DNA of 38,376 nt from Thermoplasmatota archaeon (GCA_965234725.1 CBDDUX010000054.1:1-38376), one strand, 5' to 3'. Positions 15,001 to 27,000 are shown, numbered from the stretch's first letter. Numbers are program-made.

Positions 15001-18000
15001 ATCACATATTCAAATCAAAACCCTCCGGATAGCCAGTGGTTTTTACCTTCTTCAGCTAAAGCTGTATTAAATGTATGATAACGTTCGTATACGGGTGAAG
15101 GTATTCCCCTGTATTATTTTGCCCCGTGGACCCACTGGCCCCTATCTTTATTCCCAATAATTCACTTGATGATAACATAATGTTATAGGAAATGGAAAAT
15201 TCCGTATACAAAATTTGCAAATTATTTACGTCAATAAGTAAAAAAATGGAAAAATGAAAGTCATTTTGAAACATTAATTTTATTAACCTAATGAGGTTAA
15301 AGGAAAATGCGTCTTATCTAAAAAGTGAAGTCGCCCTCAAACCCCCTCCGGAGGATCTTCCCAATGAGTCCTGACAGAGTAAACACCATACTGAGTATCA
15401 ATAGAGATGTAATTTTATACAGTTCACCGGCACAAAAGGATGTCAAATCCGTATTGGAGGCATCAGAAAAAGGTGCCTTAGGTGTCCTGGACATGGAATA
15501 CCTCGATGCTGCCTTCATTACCGAAGCGGTCACAACACTCAATGGTTCATCACTTCCATTCGGTGTCAGGATAGATCCCATGAGCGACAAGCTCATGACA
15601 CTCATGGCAGGAGATGTCCCCAAGGACATGAGGCTCCTGATCTCTATCTCCAAGGAGGGCCTCCCGGCAATGGTCAGGTCCGGTATTTACGATACCGCCC
15701 ATGAGATGAACATCAAGGTCTTCCAGGAGGTTTGTGCCAAGGAAGAGGCTGAGGATTCTGTTGAAGGTGGCTGTGACGGTCTTATCATCAGACCATACGA
15801 AGGTGGAGGAAGGGTATCCTCCTCGAACCTCGTTGATCTATTGAAGGAGATCCGTACCGTCTCCAAGAACGTTCCAGTCCTGGTCCGGGGAGGTTTCAGT
15901 TCAGATTCTATCGATAAGCTTGATGTTGAAGGCTATGTAGTCGACCAGGAACTACTCGGACCACGATCCCTTCCCGAACCAGTAAGGAATAGGATCTCCC
16001 AAAACAAGAATGTCTCCATTATCACGTTGATGAAGGACATTGGCAGGACAATGCGCTTCATTGCAGGGTCAGATGAGAAGAAGAAATTGGAGGCTCTCGA
16101 GAAGGATATGATGTCCGACGGTGCCTCACCCAAGGAGTTGTACAAGGCATTGAAGAAGGAGACCACCGAACTCCTTGAAGAGACCATGAATGGAAACGCT
16201 CTTCTTTATCCGGCAGGAGAATATGCACTTAGCGGACCTTCCATGGATCTTGATTCCATATTCGGTGGGCCAGGAACAATACACGCACACATCACCTCAG
16301 CAGAGGCCACTGTGGATGGAAAGCCTGTTCCAGCTGAATATCATGATAAATCCATTGCGATCGTCGGTATGGGCACTGTATTTCCCAAAGGCATAGGGTT
16401 GAATACATTCTGGAAGGCGGTCTTGGATGGTGTGGATGCTTGTATGGAGATACCTCCCGACAGGTGGGATTGGAGGCTTCATTACGATCCTGACCCGTCG
16501 GTTCCCAACAAGACCTATTCTAAAATAGGGGCATTCATCACGGATTTCGAGTTCAACTCATTCGATTTCAAGATCCCCCCCAAGGTTGCGGAACTCATCG
16601 ATCGTTACCAGAGGTACGGTCTGGTCGCAACAAAGGAAGCATTGAACGATTCCAAGCTAATGGAAACAAAAGGCCTGGATACTAACAGGGTTGGCGTGAT
16701 CGTTGCCAATTCAGCCGGGGGAGAGAACAGGGACTGGGTGGCTACCAGGATAAACTTCGAGGAGGTCCATGGATGGATGCAGGAGACCGATATCTGGAAG
16801 GACCTCCCCGAGGATGCCAGGAAGAAGCTCTACGAACAGACCAGAAAGAAGGTTGATGACAATACGATAGAGATCACAGAGGACACCATGCCGGGTTCCC
16901 TCCCTAACATCGCTTCCGGAAGACTGGCAAATATATTCAATTTCAGAGGGCCGAATATGATCACCGACGCCGCATGTGGATCGGCCCTTGCCGCAATGTT
17001 CGTTGCGAGGAATTCTCTCCTTCTGAAGCAAATTGATGCGGCTGTCTCCGGTGGGTTAGAGTCCTTGATGGCATCCCATGGGTTCGTTGAGTTCTGCAAG
17101 ATAGGTGCACTGACCCCCGACGGGTCCAGACCATTCTCCGATGGAGCAAACGGTTTCCTTATGGGAGAAGGAGCCGGTATAGTCATCCTGAAAAGATTGG
17201 ATGATGCGGTGGAGGCCGGAGACAAGATCTATGCTGTTATCAGAGGTATTGGCGGATCATCCGATGGTAAAGGAAAGGGAATAACAGCTCCCAATCCAGA
17301 GGGTCAGAGGTTGGCTGTTGTGAGGGCCATGGAGGATGCCGGAATAGACCGCAGCACCATATCCTTCATCGAGGCACATGGTACATCGACCGCTGTTGGT
17401 GACGTTGCTGAGGTCAATTCTCTGAAAACCGTCTTTGGAGGACTTCCCAGGAACTCAATTGGCCTCACCTCGGTTAAGTCCCAGATCGGTCACCTCAAAT
17501 CCGCTGCCGGAGTGGCCGGTGTTGTCAAAGCTGCAATGGCTGTTCATGAAAAGGTCCTTCCTCCCCAGATCAATTTTGACAAACCCAACCATTACATCAA
17601 TTGGGAGGAGACACCGTTCTATGTCATAACCGAGTCGAAAGATTGGGAGAGGATCTCTCCGGATATTCCCAGGAGATGTTCCGTTTCAGCTTTCGGGTTC
17701 GGTGGGACCAATTTCAATGTGGTTCTGGAGGAGTTCGACAGGGAAATCTATGATTCCTGGAAGAAGGCAAAGGAAGATACTGGAAAACCCTCGATCCCCC
17801 TTCCCGAACCAGAGGTAAAGACAGCAACGGTATCCATTGAAGCCGAGATCTCAGTTGACATGGATAAGGTAAGGGCGTACCTTGAAACGGAAGGCCACAA
17901 GGAAGGAGAAGCATTCCTTTTCTCATCGGATAATCCACTGGACCTCCTCAAACAGGCATCTGTATCCGTCGCAAAAGCTCGAGGTATCGTGGAAAAAGGA

Positions 18001-24000: not shown

Positions 24001-27000
24001 AGGGGACTCTCGAATGTGGCTTCCCTGAAGCTTCATCTTACCGGACGGACAAAGGTCCTTGAGGATGTTGAAAAGTTCGCATCGATGGATGAGAATGGTC
24101 TGGAAGCCGAGAAGGAGGCGATCAAGGAGAAGCTTAAGGCCTCCGGAGAGAAGGTGACTCCCGTGAAGATCGACCGGGAGTTCTCAATAATTACGAAATC
24201 CATATCCATACAACGGTTGTTGAAAGATATTGAAACCAACGGTTCTGAAGGTACCTATCATTCTATCGATGTGACAGATGTTGAGGGAATGAAAGAACTG
24301 GCTGTAACTTTCGGGCCATTCGATATGGTGGTCCATGCTGCTGGTATAGAACAATCCAAACTGATCGCGAACAAGACAGAGGAGGATTTTGCAAGGGTCT
24401 TCGATACAAAAGTCAAAGGGGCTCTTTCACTCCTTGAGGCGACTCGGGAACATCCTTTGAAGTTGTTCCTCTCGTTCTCTTCGGTTGCAGGCAGGTTCGG
24501 TAACGCGGGACAGGTGGATTATGCCGCTGCCAATGACCTTCTTTCCAAACTTCCGGGAGCGGTCAGGTCCCTCCATCCCAATTGTGTTGTCAAATCGGTC
24601 GGATGGTCGGCATGGTCCGATGTGGGGATGGCCAGTAAAGGATCTATCAAGACGATCCTGGAAATAGGCGGGATCACTTTCATCCCTGTCGATCAGGGTG
24701 TCAGATTTGCAATTGATGAACTTGGATCAGGTAAGGAGAGGGAAGTCCTCTATTCTGGATCGATGGGACCACTGGACCGTGAGTGTTCCATGAGATGGGA
24801 GGAAGGCATCAATGTACCATCTGATGAATATATCTCAGAACTGGAAAAGGAGATACCTCTCAAGCAGATGGAAGAAGTTATCGAGGAAGAAGAAGTCACC
24901 GAAGTGGAGGAAGAGAGCCAAATAGAGTTACCTTCCAACACTCCGATGGATCCAATATCTCCTCTTGTGGACAGGATAGTCGAGAAGGATGATACCTCGA
25001 TCGTTGCGATCAAGGTTCTTGATATCAACAGGGAGAGGTTCCTTCCGGACCACTCTGTGATGGGTACACCTGTCCTTCCAGGTGTGATGGGATTGGAGGT
25101 ATTTGCCGAGGTAGCAAAATTGCTCAGACCCGATCTGGATGTCATAGGTCTTTCTGAGGTCCAATTCAAGAAGCCGGTCAATGTCAAGGACACACTGGAG
25201 ATCAAGATCTCAGGGAAGATAGAGGACGATGATGAGCTTGAAAAGACAGTCAACATCAGACTGACCTCAACGGATCCCAAGAAGAAGAAAGAGATCGTCC
25301 ATTTTATCGGTAATGTCATCTTGGGGAATTCCGAGGATGTTTGCAGGATCCAGGACGGCCACCCTTTGAGACCGGACTCCGTCAAAGCCCAGGTCCTTAG
25401 AGATGAGATCTATCAGCATCTTTTCCATGGACAGCTGTTCCAGGTGACCGCGGGCATGTCCGTATTGACATCCGAGGAGCTGCTTGGAACCTTCAGGATA
25501 CCAGAGGGTCCACAGTTCGAACCGAAAACTGGCTGGACGGATGGAGACCTGCAAACACCAGCCCTCCATACTGAATTGGGATTTCAAGTGGCAGGTGCAT
25601 ATGTTCTCGACCGCTTCGATATGATGGCGCTTCCGGTAAAAGTCGGAAGGATCTCCTATTCCTCCAGGATACGGACGGATGAGAAGGCCTTCGCATGGGT
25701 CCGTTTCAAGGGTCAGGAGGAGAACGAGTTCTCTTTCGATGTGGACATCATAGACCCCAGCGGAAACGTGAGGTTCTCCTATCAGGATTATAGATTGAAG
25801 GGTCTGATGGCCAGCAAGGTTGACCTCCAGGGGGACCACTCCATACCGTTCGAAGAGGTCCCTTCCCCCATCAAGGGGATCAAGGTGTTCAGGCTGGATG
25901 TTGATGCCTTCACAACGGAACTTGATGTGGTCAAGGACCATTTCTCCGAGGATGAATGGGCCTCCCTTGTCAATGAAAAGATGAGTGACAAGAGAAAGAG
26001 GGAGCATGTGCTTGGGAGGGTGATATCCAAGCTTGCGGTTTCCTGGTACGTGAACATCAGCGAGGCCAGACCGGTATCTCTCACCAATATCAGCATCCAG
26101 ACAGAAGATGGTGGAAGACCGTTCGCGATCCTCGATGGGAAGAGGATCGAGATATCGATATCACATTCCCACAGATGGGCCATTTGTTCGGTTGGCGACA
26201 AACAGCATGGATGCGACATCGAACTGGCAGAGTCAAGGGACAGGGCCTTCTCGGATGAGGCTTTCGATCAAGGAGAGGTTCAACTGATGAAGAGGATCCA
26301 GGAAGAAATGGATATAGGCGAGCCACTTGCCCAGACCTTGCTGTTCTCATCAAAGGAGGCCTATTTGAAGATGATAGGTACAGGGTTGAGGACGGACCTG
26401 AAAAAGGTCGCTTGCACTGATGTTTTAATACTTCCGGCAAGGACCGGACTTGCTTTCGAAGTCCTTGTCGGACATGATGATAAGATATCAAAGGTCGAGG
26501 CCAGTGTCGCATCAGCATATGTATTGACGATCTGTTCAAAATCATAAGAAACAACCGTTGCAGAATACATCGGATGTGAGATTCTATGGTGAAGAAGAGC
26601 AATATACTTGGAGGGGCAGGCGAGACAGTTCTGCTCACTGGGAACGAAGCGGTAGCCAGGGGCTGTTTAGAGGCAGGACTTGCAGTCGGTACCGCCTATC
26701 CGGGAACACCCGCGTCGACCATTATGGAGAAACTTGGTGAGGTAGCCCCCGAACTGGGTTTCTGGGCCGAATTCTCGGTGAACGAGGCCGTTGCCTTTGA
26801 GGTGGCGGCAGGATCGGCCCTTGCCGGTGTGAGATCGTTGATGTCTACAAAAATGCTTGGGGTCAATCTGATCGCCGATGCCCTCACCGTGATATCTGTC
26901 ACCGGTGTAAGGGGTGGATTGGTGATCATAACAGCTGACGATCCTCAACAGTTCTCCTCTCAGAATGCGGAAGATACCAGATTCTTCGCAATGCTGGCCA

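What a model noticed while it worked through the whole genome (the two positions that open the first line are those of the whole stretch)
15325..26547. Single-chain PUFA-synthase-like megasynthase with threonine carrier sites and a fused PPTase, in an archaeon
The largest gene (3740 aa) encodes, in order: an unassigned 340-aa N-terminal region, KS, AT, a second KS-like domain, six tandem carrier domains, KR, DH and a phosphopantetheinyl transferase. In all six carrier domains the conserved Ser that carries phosphopantetheine is Thr (DLGIDTVKQVELF). The gene is conserved in most of the family and in other Thermoplasmatota. Homologues in Asgard archaea, Elusimicrobia and Chloroflexi share the Thr.
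Evidence so far: Pfam domains. Second KS with ACASS. Six repeats with GIDT. Aligned to the DSI/DSV sites of the PigH ACPs, 5y08. 29 of 46 related genomes, own family 21 of 23. Homologues and their sources. Thr in the 2,000-3,800-aa family against Ser in modular PKSs. No other KS except thiolases. Literature searches in calls 96 and 101 listed nothing relevant.
(Added by a program. Inside this text positions count along the whole contig: contig position 1 is position 1 of the stretch shown here. "Call 12" and the like, gene names such as g00115 and contig names such as C1 are that model's own, and its searches are not shown. The text may have been shortened before it was handed on; [...] marks where a part breaks off. 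The agent that wrote the report below was given it as the finding of a first reader that could run no searches.)

Follow-up and report, generated by a model that had tools for sequence, protein, structure and literature searches.

The report
Archaeal fatty-acid-type megasynthase, threonine carriers
One 3,740-residue archaeal protein holds a whole fatty-acid/polyketide assembly line plus its own activating enzyme, and, like nearly all of its mostly bacterial relatives, it has threonine where every studied carrier domain has the serine that holds the swinging arm.

Summary
ORF 15325-26547(+) encodes, in order: a FabK/NMO-like domain, KS, malonyl-type AT, a second KS, six carrier domains, KR, DH and an Sfp/HetI-type PPTase. 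All six carriers have Thr where solved ACPs have the phosphopantetheine-bearing Ser.

The protein belongs to the "Type R secondary lipid synthase" family of Shulse and Allen (2011): KS-MAT-"CLF"-ACP(3-6)-KR followed by a PPTase gene, product unknown. That family is large and mostly bacterial.

Thr is a trait of the whole family, not of archaea. In two samples chosen through the second KS, 244 of 250 and 347 of 372 carrier domains have Thr; almost all other full-length ones have Ser. All four Thr codons are used. Catalytic residues of KS1, AT, KS2, DH and PPTase were invariant in every sampled sequence. A homologous PPTase is fused or nearby in 38 of 46 complete loci.

The archaeal form fuses the PPTase and adds the "unassigned" N-terminal domain, which folds like FabK but lacks its His. 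These genomes also hold a eukaryote-style single-chain acetyl-CoA carboxylase, adjacent to the synthase in two relatives, and PlsC-type acyltransferases.

Best reading: an active, self-priming, ACP-dependent acyl-chain synthase with Thr-linked phosphopantetheine. The product and the modification are unproven.

The parts
15325..26547 (+). Megasynthase gene. The longest ORF starts at GTG 15325 (3740 aa). The likelier start is ATG 15364, at the stretch conserved in relatives.
   Evidence: TIGR02813 PfaA 1210.5 bits against a cut-off of 1010.1
15364..16329 (+). N-terminal FabK/nitronate-monooxygenase-like TIM-barrel domain (aa 14-335), an ER-like domain. Arg stands where the genome's own bona fide NMO protein has the His of its AGGH motif. 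The N-terminal QGGM stretch is not kept.
   Evidence: Pfam NMO is only E 0.019 here, but homologue P0005 passes the Pfam cut-off, 30.3 against 28. AF2 model pLDDT 82.4, pTM 0.81. Best PDB matches are FabK 9pl0, 7l00, 2z6i, TM 0.64-0.68, E 5e-14. Alignment.
16336..17754 (+). KS1 (aa 338-810), active-site Cys551
   Evidence: PF00109/PF02801; Cys kept in 70 of 70 sampled relatives
18172..19224 (+). Acyltransferase (aa 950-1300) with GHSLG (Ser1059) and HAFH. I recall both as marks of malonyl-CoA transferases.
   Evidence: PF00698; TIGR00128 FabD E 2e-58, below its cut-off; Ser kept in 74 of 74; sequence
19522..21219 (+). KS2 (aa 1400-1965): a divergent FabF-like ketosynthase with Cys1648, His1796 and His1836. 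This domain defines the family; Shulse and Allen labelled it 'CLF'.
   Evidence: Cys, His and His each kept in 79 of 79; 522 cluster representatives at E<=1e-30
21259..23229 (+). Six tandem carrier (PP-binding) domains: aa 1979-2054, 2091-2166, 2209-2283, 2328-2402, 2450-2525, 2555-2635. The Thr codons start at nt 21364, 21706, 22057, 22414, 22783 (all ACC) and 23098 (ACT).
23422..24654 (+). Ketoreductase with its structural subdomain (aa 2700-3110); GGGSGITAE and YAAAN motifs seen in the translation
   Evidence: PF08659; sequence
24907..25824 (+). PKS-type double-hotdog dehydratase (aa 3195-3500), His3243 in HxxxGxxxxP
   Evidence: PF21089, PF14765; His kept in 51 of 51
25837..26544 (+). Sfp/HetI-type 4'-phosphopantetheinyl transferase domain (aa 3505-3740); Asp3631, Glu3633, Glu3678 and Lys3682 kept
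   Evidence: PF01648 above its cut-off; best NCBIfam match is HetI, E 7.8e-10, below its cut-off; weak matches to AcpS and Sfp in the PDB; Asp, Glu, Glu and Lys each kept in 37 of 37

Best explanation
The gene encodes an active, iterative, ACP-dependent type I acyl-chain synthase of the PfaA-like 'Type R secondary lipid synthase' family. In this archaeon it is fused into one self-sufficient polypeptide.

Proposed mechanism, all of it inferred:
1. The C-terminal Sfp/HetI-type PPTase moves phosphopantetheine from CoA onto the Thr hydroxyl at the start of helix II of each of the six carriers. This is the position where other carriers use Ser.
2. The AT loads malonyl units. These are made by the genome's single-chain acetyl-CoA carboxylase.
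3. KS1 and KS2, both with full Cys-His-His triads, extend the chain.
4. KR and DH process each beta-keto group.
5. The enoyl group is reduced, if at all, either by the divergent FabK-like N-terminal domain or by the separate 371-aa NMO-family protein.
6. There is no thioesterase domain. The chain is probably passed to an acyltransferase such as the co-occurring PlsC-type enzymes.

The most likely product is a saturated or partly reduced fatty-acyl 'secondary lipid'.

Shown here: the domain anatomy, Thr at the carrier site, its conservation, the linkage to PPTase and ACC genes, and intact catalytic residues. Inferred: that Thr is modified, that the enzyme works iteratively, the ER step, the release route and the product.
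For: Anatomy and catalytic motifs.

Position of the Thr: it aligns to the Ser of solved ACPs.

Only hydroxyl residues are tolerated at the site:
- 80 loci found through KS2 peptides alone: 250 carrier domains, Thr 244, Ser 3, three truncated.
- 150 representatives of 50%-identity clusters found with KS2 alone: 372 domains in 131 proteins, Thr 347, Ser 13, 5 other residues and 7 gapped, most of these in matches that lack the conserved motif or are cut short.
- Proteins plus five relatives: 665 domains, Thr 653, Ser 10, 2 degenerate.

Ser and Thr occur side by side. Carrier 1 is Ser and carriers 2-6 are Thr in a same-genus relative with the same fused PPTase. A Heimdallarchaeum protein reads Ser, Thr, Ser.

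Selection acts on the amino acid: Thr codons are ACG 117, ACC 94, ACT 18, ACA 15.

Catalytic residues were invariant in all sampled sequences:
- KS1 Cys 70 of 70
- AT Ser 74 of 74
- KS2 Cys, His and His, each 79 of 79
- DH His 51 of 51
- PPTase Asp, Glu, Glu and Lys, each 37 of 37

PPTase linkage: of 46 loci with a complete 3' end and at least 3 kb downstream, 11 have the PPTase fused, 27 have it as a separate gene in the locus, 8 have neither.

No other target: the six Thr carriers are the only PP-binding domains found in a genome that is 97.65% complete.

Malonyl-CoA supply: a 2147-aa ACC with biotin carboxylase, BCCP, ACC_central and carboxyltransferase parts. Its gene lies directly downstream of the synthase in relatives G006 and G012. 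ACC lies in 16 of the 46 complete loci, 12 bacterial and 4 archaeal. ACC_central was found in 15 of 27 synthase-positive relatives and 0 of 14 synthase-negative ones.

PlsC-type acyltransferases: 26 of 27 synthase-positive genomes against 3 of 14 negative ones.

N-terminal domain: FabK fold.
Against: No experiment shows phosphopantetheine on Thr in any protein that I know of or found. I recall, without having seen the paper, that E. coli ACP S36T is not modified by AcpS.

The ER-like domain lacks the His of the AGGH motif and the QGGM stretch of the genome's own NMO protein, so it may not reduce anything.

No thioesterase domain or PF00975 gene was found. PlsY was not found. No GpsA match reached its cut-off. 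The link to glycerolipids is therefore weak.

The co-occurrence counts rest on essentially two lineages, f1 and f7, so they are not independent.

ACC_central was not found in 12 of 27 synthase-positive genomes, many of them incomplete.

Eight of 46 complete loci have no PPTase in the stretch held.

No product is known for any member of the family (PMC3098273).
Confidence: 0.6

Rival explanations
1. The enzyme is active and primed on Thr, but it works as a polyketide synthase proper. With KR and DH and no working ER it would make a conjugated polyene or a hydroxylated chain (pigment, antioxidant or signal) rather than a saturated fatty acid for lipids.
For: The DH is PKS-type and no FabA-type isomerase was seen. 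The ER-like domain lacks the His of the AGGH motif. Most bacterial members have no ER-like domain at all. The order KS-AT-carrier-KR-DH-PPTase resembles enediyne polyene synthases; that resemblance is recalled, not tested. No thioesterase was found.
Against: An ER-type activity seems to be recruited again and again. A FabK-like domain is fused in the archaeal, Desulfomonilaceae/Syntrophaceae and Desulfoluna-type forms. An acyl-CoA dehydrogenase gene lies directly upstream in 14 of 51 bacterial loci. The genome has a separate intact NMO-family protein. Tandem carriers and ACC linkage are described as typical of lipid-type synthases (PMC3098273). PlsC co-occurs with the synthase.
Confidence: 0.25
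2. The Thr carriers are not phosphopantetheinylated. They would be inactive, or carry another group, and the protein would act on CoA-bound or free substrates or serve a non-catalytic role.
For: There is no precedent for Thr as the attachment site (searches found none). Recalled: the S36T mutant of E. coli ACP is not modified by AcpS. No RNA or product data exist.
Against: Thr or Ser fills 97-99% of carrier sites over hundreds of diverged sequences, with synonymous codon turnover. The flanking motif is highly conserved. PPTase catalytic residues are invariant and the PPTase is fused or linked in 38 of 46 loci, yet the genome has no other carrier for it to act on. Every other catalytic residue is kept. 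Decayed domains would drift to Ala, Asn, Gly and the like; such residues appear almost only in matches that lack the conserved motif or are cut short.
Confidence: 0.1
3. The gene is a bacterial contig wrongly binned into an archaeal genome, or a recent and possibly unexpressed transfer, so 'in an archaeon' is an artefact.
For: The family is mostly bacterial. G+C of the gene is about 0.50 against 0.38-0.48 upstream. At least one locus in the public sample looks wrongly binned: L055, labelled Muribaculaceae, is nearly identical to an Elusimicrobia locus.
Against: The gene sits inside a 38-kb contig with ordinary neighbours. It is found in 22 of 23 other genomes of the family and 4 of 4 of a second family, with part of the gene order shared. 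On the KS2 tree the window groups with four Thermoplasmatota sequences (support 100) and then a fifth (98). The NMO-...-PPT architecture is shared by those archaeal genomes.
Confidence: 0.03

Closest known systems
'Type R' secondary lipid synthase cluster of Shulse and Allen 2011 (PLoS One 6:e20146, PMC3098273): Koribacter, Solibacter, Elusimicrobium, Roseiflexus
   Same: One pfaA homologue with KS-MAT-second KS ('CLF')-ACP(3-6)-KR, a PPTase encoded right after it and sometimes an ACC gene in between; product unknown. The window's homologues come from the same phyla and share the KS2 domain. The PPTase domain fits the x(G/D)xP and hShxH motifs that the paper gives for Type R (and the sequence; checked by eye).
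   Different: Here the PPTase is fused to the C-terminus and a FabK-like domain to the N-terminus, and the host is an archaeon. The paper calls the second KS a CLF, but it keeps Cys-His-His. The main text has no occurrence of 'threonine' or 'archaea'. Its supplementary files were not seen.
PfaA subunit of bacterial PUFA synthases (TIGR02813)
   Same: KS-MAT-tandem ACP-KR-DH order and iterative logic. The whole protein scores above the family cut-off.
   Different: An extra KS lies between AT and the carriers. No PfaB, PfaC or PfaD partners: no other KS in the genome and no FabA-type DH seen in the protein. The carriers use Thr. A PfaA-like protein in a related system is reported to keep the conserved Ser in all ACP domains (PMC13291983, passage).
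Enediyne polyene synthases (PKSE), recalled as KS-AT-ACP-KR-DH-PPTase
   Same: An iterative PUFA-synthase-like protein with a PPTase domain fused at its C-terminus that primes its own carrier. This comes from memory; no call tested it.
   Different: As recalled, PKSE has one carrier with Ser, no second KS and a dedicated thioesterase partner. None of this was compared here.
FabK enoyl-ACP reductase II / PfaD-type ER (NMO family)
   Same: The predicted fold of aa 1-340 matches FabK over nearly its full length. PfaD (6lkc) and a trans-acting ER entry (4yx6) also match, more weakly.
   Different: The Pfam score is below the cut-off in this protein. The His of the AGGH motif is Arg, and Cys or Trp in bacterial forms. 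The QGGM stretch is not kept.

Membership tests
Type R secondary lipid synthase (Shulse and Allen 2011) | Single pfaA homologue with KS-MAT-second KS ('CLF')-ACP(3-6)-KR | tested here: met
   The domain order has exactly this core, with six carriers, followed by DH. Definition from PMC3098273.
Type R secondary lipid synthase (Shulse and Allen 2011) | PPTase encoded directly downstream | tested here: met
   Present as a C-terminal fusion. The homologous PPTase is a separate gene in the locus in 27 of 46 complete loci and fused in 11 of 46.
Type R secondary lipid synthase (Shulse and Allen 2011) | Homology with members from Acidobacteria, Elusimicrobia and Chloroflexi | tested here: met
   KS2 peptides retrieve Solibacteraceae, Bryobacteraceae, Elusimicrobium and Chloroflexota loci at 40-46% identity; tree. 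The exact strains named in the paper were not among the 80 loci kept.
PUFA synthase PfaA (TIGR02813) | Score above the curated cut-off | tested here: met
   1210.5 bits against 1010.1
PUFA synthase PfaA (TIGR02813) | Works with PfaC (KS-CLF-FabA-type DH2), PfaB and PfaD partners | tested here: not met
   The only other PF00109 matches in the genome are three thiolases. A FabA-family search of the genome was not run.
Acyl carrier protein / PP-binding (PF00550) | Pfam score above the cut-off and a helix-II motif aligned to solved ACPs | tested here: met
   All six domains are above the cut-off in the genome scan. Carrier 6 is aligned to solved ACPs.
Acyl carrier protein / PP-binding (PF00550) | Ser as the phosphopantetheine attachment residue | tested here: not met
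   Thr in 6 of 6 carriers. Whether the Thr is modified cannot be tested with these tools.
Sfp-type 4'-phosphopantetheinyl transferase | ACPS-family match, about 230 aa with two lobes, acidic metal ligands and the KE motif | tested here: met
   PF01648 scores 32.7-39 bits against a cut-off of 25. The two halves match AcpS and Sfp. Asp, Glu, Glu and Lys are each kept in 37 of 37. The best NCBIfam match is HetI, well below its cut-off.
FabK / nitronate monooxygenase family (PF03060) | Sequence score above the Pfam cut-off | tested here: not met
   14.8 bits against 28 for the window's domain. The 60%-identical homologue P0005 scores 30.3.
FabK / nitronate monooxygenase family (PF03060) | TIM-barrel fold with a helical subdomain like FabK | tested here: met
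   AF2 pLDDT 82.4. Foldseek top hits are FabK, TM 0.64-0.68, about 300-318 aligned columns.
FabK / nitronate monooxygenase family (PF03060) | His of the AGGH motif and the N-terminal GGM flavin-site stretch | tested here: not met
   The window has EGGGRVS where the genome's own NMO protein has MAGGHLG, and has no QGGM. The catalytic role of that His is recalled, not tested.
Chain-length factor (CLF) | KS-like domain that has lost the active-site Cys | tested here: not met
   KS2 keeps Cys1648, His1796 and His1836. Each is kept in 79 of 79 sampled relatives.

The most novel reading that the evidence does not exclude
A widespread family of PUFA-synthase-like enzymes (522 clusters at 50% identity with E<=1e-30) carries its swinging arm on threonine. 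O-phosphopantetheinyl-threonine would be a modification not described so far, installed by a co-inherited PPTase. In Thermoplasmatota and Heimdall-group Asgard archaea the system has become a self-contained, ACP-dependent fatty acid synthase, paired with a eukaryote-style single-chain acetyl-CoA carboxylase. It would supply the acyl chains for ester lipids in archaea that otherwise make isoprenoid ether lipids, and so bear directly on the 'lipid divide'.
Probability: 0.2. Interest if true: 0.9.

Novelty: new variant of a known kind. Interest (0 to 1): 0.68.

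Why it matters
1. Carrier-protein biochemistry rests on a Ser-linked phosphopantetheine. A natural family in which Thr fills 93-98% of carrier sites, always beside its own PPTase, predicts a new modification and a PPTase that accepts Thr. That pair could be used as an orthogonal carrier/PPTase system, and motif-based genome mining may currently misjudge such carriers.

2. Archaea are said to lack ACP and ACP synthase almost entirely (bioRxiv 10.1101/2024.07.05.601840, passage). 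Where archaeal or Asgard fatty acids and ester lipids would come from is an open question (PMC13400652 and PMC8813620, passages).

3. Here whole archaeal families, and some Heimdall-group genomes, carry a complete ACP-dependent synthase with a PPTase, often with a single-chain ACC. Both ideas can be tested directly by expressing one gene.

Tried and rejected
- No RNA holder was listed for 10 kb of the gene.
- Literature searches for Thr as the attachment residue found nothing relevant: searches gave 0 papers, one search gave one unrelated paper.
- Searches for follow-up work on Type R or its named hosts and for archaeal PKS or PUFA synthases gave no characterisation of this family. One search was badly aimed: with a minimum of two terms, the hglE-KS term played no part.
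- Only open-access papers and bioRxiv were searched. The supplements of PMC3098273 (File S1, Figure S3) were not seen and may hold carrier or PPTase alignments.
- Complex prediction was not sent, because the tool text says an enzyme with its carrier is rarely informative.
- The idea that the downstream iorA/iorB-like genes supply starter units was dropped. In same-genus G003 the next ORF is about 505 aa, not the 651-aa gene. In G006 and G012 the next gene is ACC.
- PlsY was not found. GpsA had no match above its cut-off. No PF00975 thioesterase was found. All three in a genome 97.65% complete.
- The KS2 tree is FastTree only. Its deep branches are weak and it has no outgroup, so I make no claim about who gave the gene to whom.

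Full report
**1. The observation**

The window holds one open frame at 15325-26547 on the + strand, 3740 aa from a GTG. An ATG at 15364 opens the stretch that relatives conserve and is the likelier start.

Pfam and NCBIfam give the order KS, AT, a second KS-like domain, PP-binding domains, KR, PKS-type DH and an ACPS-family PPTase. The whole protein scores 1210.5 bits against TIGR02813 (PfaA), above the cut-off of 1010.1. A domain-by-domain phmmer map gives six carriers.

All six carriers read DLGIDTVKQVELF, with Thr at residues 2014, 2128, 2245, 2364, 2487 and 2592. HMMER alignments of carrier 6 to solved ACPs put this Thr on the Ser of their D-S-L/I/V site: both PigH ACPs of 5y08, and 7e42, 6lvt, 4ihf.

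The repeats are not all recent copies. Carriers 3 and 4 are 96% identical in DNA, but carriers 1 and 6 are only 47-54% and 47-73% identical in protein to the rest.

**2. The domains look active**

The translation shows the usual motifs in each catalytic domain:
- KS1: the Cys, then HGTST and GH.
- AT: GHSLG and HAFH, which I recall as marks of malonyl-CoA transferases.
- KS2: ACASS, HETYTP and TGH. These align to the Cys, His and His of FabF-type enzymes.
- KR: a Rossmann motif and YAAAN.
- DH: HxxxGxxxxP.
- PPTase: GCDIE and FSSKEAYLK.

The same residues were checked in 80 related loci from public genomes. All were invariant:
- KS1 Cys 70 of 70
- AT Ser 74 of 74
- KS2 Cys, His and His, each 79 of 79
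- DH His 51 of 51
- PPTase Asp, Glu, Glu and Lys, each 37 of 37

The second KS is therefore a ketosynthase, not a chain-length factor.

**3. The "unassigned" N-terminus**

In the window's protein the first 340 aa give only weak matches: Pfam NMO at E 0.019 and FabK at E 0.0022. A 60%-identical homologue, P0005, passes the Pfam NMO cut-off, 30.3 against 28.

An AlphaFold2 model built on ten homologues has pLDDT 82.4 and pTM 0.81. Its best PDB matches are FabK enoyl-ACP reductases 9pl0, 7l00 and 2z6i, with TM 0.64-0.68 and E down to 5e-14. PfaD (6lkc) matches further down the list.

I aligned the domain with the genome's own intact 371-aa NMO protein:
- The His of that protein's AGGH motif is Arg in the window. 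It is Cys or Trp in bacterial forms.
- The QGGM stretch is not kept.
- A motif R-x-x-E-G-G-G-R-V-S is itself conserved.

The fold is that of an ER. Whether it reduces anything is open.

**4. What family this is**

A search with residues 1400-2650 found 3893 proteins at E<=1e-10 among 7999 scored. The best 120 are mostly bacterial proteins of about 3000 aa with KS-AT-KS2-ACP(4-6)-KR-DH. Sources name them "type I polyketide synthase" or "SDR family oxidoreductase".

This matches the "Type R" cluster of Shulse and Allen (PMC3098273; passages read). They describe one pfaA homologue, KS-MAT-CLF-ACP(3-6)-KR, followed by a PPTase gene. Koribacter has an ACC gene in between. Hosts are Acidobacteria, Elusimicrobium and Roseiflexus, and the product is uncharacterised. 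Their main text has no occurrence of "threonine" or "archaea".

A scan of one genome per prokaryotic species used two KS2 peptides only. The 80 come from many bacterial phyla and from Thermoplasmatota, Poseidoniales, Heimdallarchaeota and Promethearchaeota.

An exhaustive phmmer search with KS2 found 522 cluster representatives at E<=1e-30.

**5. Threonine is a trait of the family**

The samples were chosen through KS2, so they are not biased by carrier sequence.
- 80 loci: 250 carrier domains, Thr 244, Ser 3, three truncated.
- 150 best representatives: 372 carrier-like domains in 131 proteins, Thr 347, Ser 13, Asp 2, Gly 2, Pro 1, 7 gapped. Most of the odd ones lack the conserved motif or are cut short.
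- Proteins plus five relatives: 665 domains, Thr 653, Ser 10, 2 degenerate. This sample may be biased towards Thr, because carrier words were used in that search.

A few members are all-Ser, for example P0133 with six Ser.

Ser and Thr also coexist within one protein:
- Carrier 1 is Ser and carriers 2-6 are Thr in the same-genus relative G003 and in several family members.
- A Heimdallarchaeum aukensis protein reads Ser, Thr, Ser.

All four Thr codons are used: ACG 117, ACC 94, ACT 18, ACA 15. A single base change would give Ser.

So the site is under selection for a hydroxyl residue, with Thr preferred. That fits a working attachment site, not a decayed one.

**6. The PPTase travels with the synthase**

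Of 46 loci with a complete 3' end and at least 3 kb downstream, a homologue of the window's PPTase domain is fused in 11, is a separate gene within the fetched locus in 27 and is missing from the stretch held in 8. In archaea it is fused in 6 of 7.

In the window's genome, 97.65% complete, the six Thr carriers are the only PP-binding domains found. The fused PPTase, and a second 126-aa AcpS-like gene on another contig, have no other visible target.

The second Thermoplasmatota family, f7, has ACP2-KS-AT-KS2-ACP3-KR-DH without the fusion. Each of its four genomes has an unlinked PPTase frame of 253-311 aa.

**7. Context in the genome**

In the window the gene stands between surface-protein genes upstream and iorA/iorB-like and AMP-phosphorylase-like genes downstream. 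That neighbourhood is not conserved.

Elsewhere the genome encodes:
- a 2147-aa single-chain ACC with biotin carboxylase, BCCP, ACC_central and carboxyltransferase parts;
- two PlsC-type acyltransferases;
- an intact NMO-family protein;
- the archaeal GGGP synthase and CarS.

In relatives G006 and G012 the ACC gene lies directly downstream of the synthase on the same strand. ACC genes also lie in 16 of the 46 complete loci, 12 bacterial and 4 archaeal, the latter including Heimdallarchaeota.

Among 41 related genomes:
- ACC_central: 15 of 27 synthase-positive genomes, 0 of 14 negative.
- PlsC: 26 of 27 synthase-positive genomes, 3 of 14 negative.

These counts rest on two lineages and many incomplete genomes, so they are only suggestive.

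In 14 of 51 bacterial loci an acyl-CoA dehydrogenase gene sits directly upstream. That is where the archaeal form has its FabK-like domain.

PlsY, a GpsA above its cut-off and a PF00975 thioesterase were not found.

**8. Mechanism proposed**

The protein primes itself: its PPTase puts phosphopantetheine on the six Thr. It then runs malonyl-CoA-fed cycles of condensation (KS1 and KS2), ketoreduction and dehydration. Enoyl reduction is either in cis or by the free NMO protein. With no thioesterase, the chain would leave by acyl transfer.

The main rival keeps all of this but drops the ER step, which gives a polyene-type product.

Why Thr? One untested idea is orthogonality. A Thr carrier would be ignored by the host's housekeeping PPTase and served only by its own. 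I recall, without having seen the paper, that E. coli ACP S36T is not modified by AcpS.

**9. Novelty**

The architecture class is known in bacteria as Type R. Archaeal copies sit in databases under generic names. A BGC survey reports polyketide synthase clusters and transcripts from Thermoplasmatota genomes (PMC9902471, passage).

I found nothing in print on four points:
- the family-wide Thr;
- the Ser/Thr interchange;
- the active second KS;
- the archaeal single-chain form with an ER-like domain, a fused PPTase and a partner single-chain ACC.

Searches. They covered open-access papers and bioRxiv only.

[quoted passage not shown] This family is an exception that reaches into the Heimdall group.

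On a quick KS2 tree:
- The window groups with four Thermoplasmatota sequences (support 100) and then with a fifth, the f7-type locus (98).
- That group sits next to Asgard sequences (89) and near Desulfomonilaceae/Syntrophaceae forms that also carry the NMO-like and PPTase domains.
- A second Thermoplasmatota group lies elsewhere.
- Deep branches are weak, so the direction of transfer is not resolved.

Noticed in passing
G000 contig C22:7547-13987 (+), outside the window; also L112:10776-17258 and L113:5006-11329: A 2147-aa single-chain acetyl-CoA carboxylase with biotin carboxylase, BCCP, ACC_central and carboxyltransferase parts. PF08326 ACC_central matched none of the 14 control prokaryotes. 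The architecture is eukaryote-like. The gene lies directly downstream of the synthase in two related genera.
   Followed up: partly
G000 contig C26:89012-89299 (L005:1486-1863): A second, AcpS-like PPTase of 126 aa lies between glycosyltransferase-type genes. Similar short frames occur in only a few relatives (G003, G006, G010, G030, G034). Its target is unknown, since the genome shows no carrier other than the six Thr domains.
   Followed up: partly
L020 (G030:C102:5011-14310) and L021 (G036:C1): A second Thermoplasmatota family has a variant with two extra Thr carriers at the N-terminus (ACP2-KS-AT-KS2-ACP3-KR-DH) and no fused PPTase or FabK-like domain.
   Followed up: partly
Bacterial loci such as L066:4621-6861: An acyl-CoA dehydrogenase gene sits directly upstream on the same strand in 14 of 51 bacterial loci. 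In L066 the open frame also includes an ETF-alpha part. It may be the enoyl-reducing partner of the bacterial forms.
   Followed up: partly
P0038 (Desulfoluna butyratoxydans, 4263 aa) and P0026: A bacterial super-form: FabK-like domain, about 400 aa unassigned, KS, KS, AT, KS2, 7-8 Thr carriers, KR, DH.
   Followed up: no
window 26586-29161 (+): An iorA/iorB-like 2-oxoacid:ferredoxin oxidoreductase pair starts 39 nt after the synthase stop. This adjacency is not seen in relatives G003, G006 or G012.
   Followed up: partly
window 877-14804 and 34951-38367: Several very large predicted surface proteins flank the locus, with PKD, Big, FG-GAP, transglutaminase and NosD/beta-helix domains.
   Followed up: no
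window 33112-34596 (+): A protein with HEAT/Armadillo repeats joined to a C-terminal DnaJ domain.
   Followed up: no
L055 against L051: A locus labelled Muribaculaceae is almost identical in KS2 to one from Candidatus Avelusimicrobium (branch lengths 0.003 and 0.006). The contig is probably wrongly binned in the public record.
   Followed up: no
window 16001-30000: G+C is about 0.49-0.51 across the synthase and the ior genes, against 0.38-0.48 upstream and about 0.44 downstream. Shulse and Allen report a similar offset noted for the Elusimicrobium homologue.
   Followed up: no
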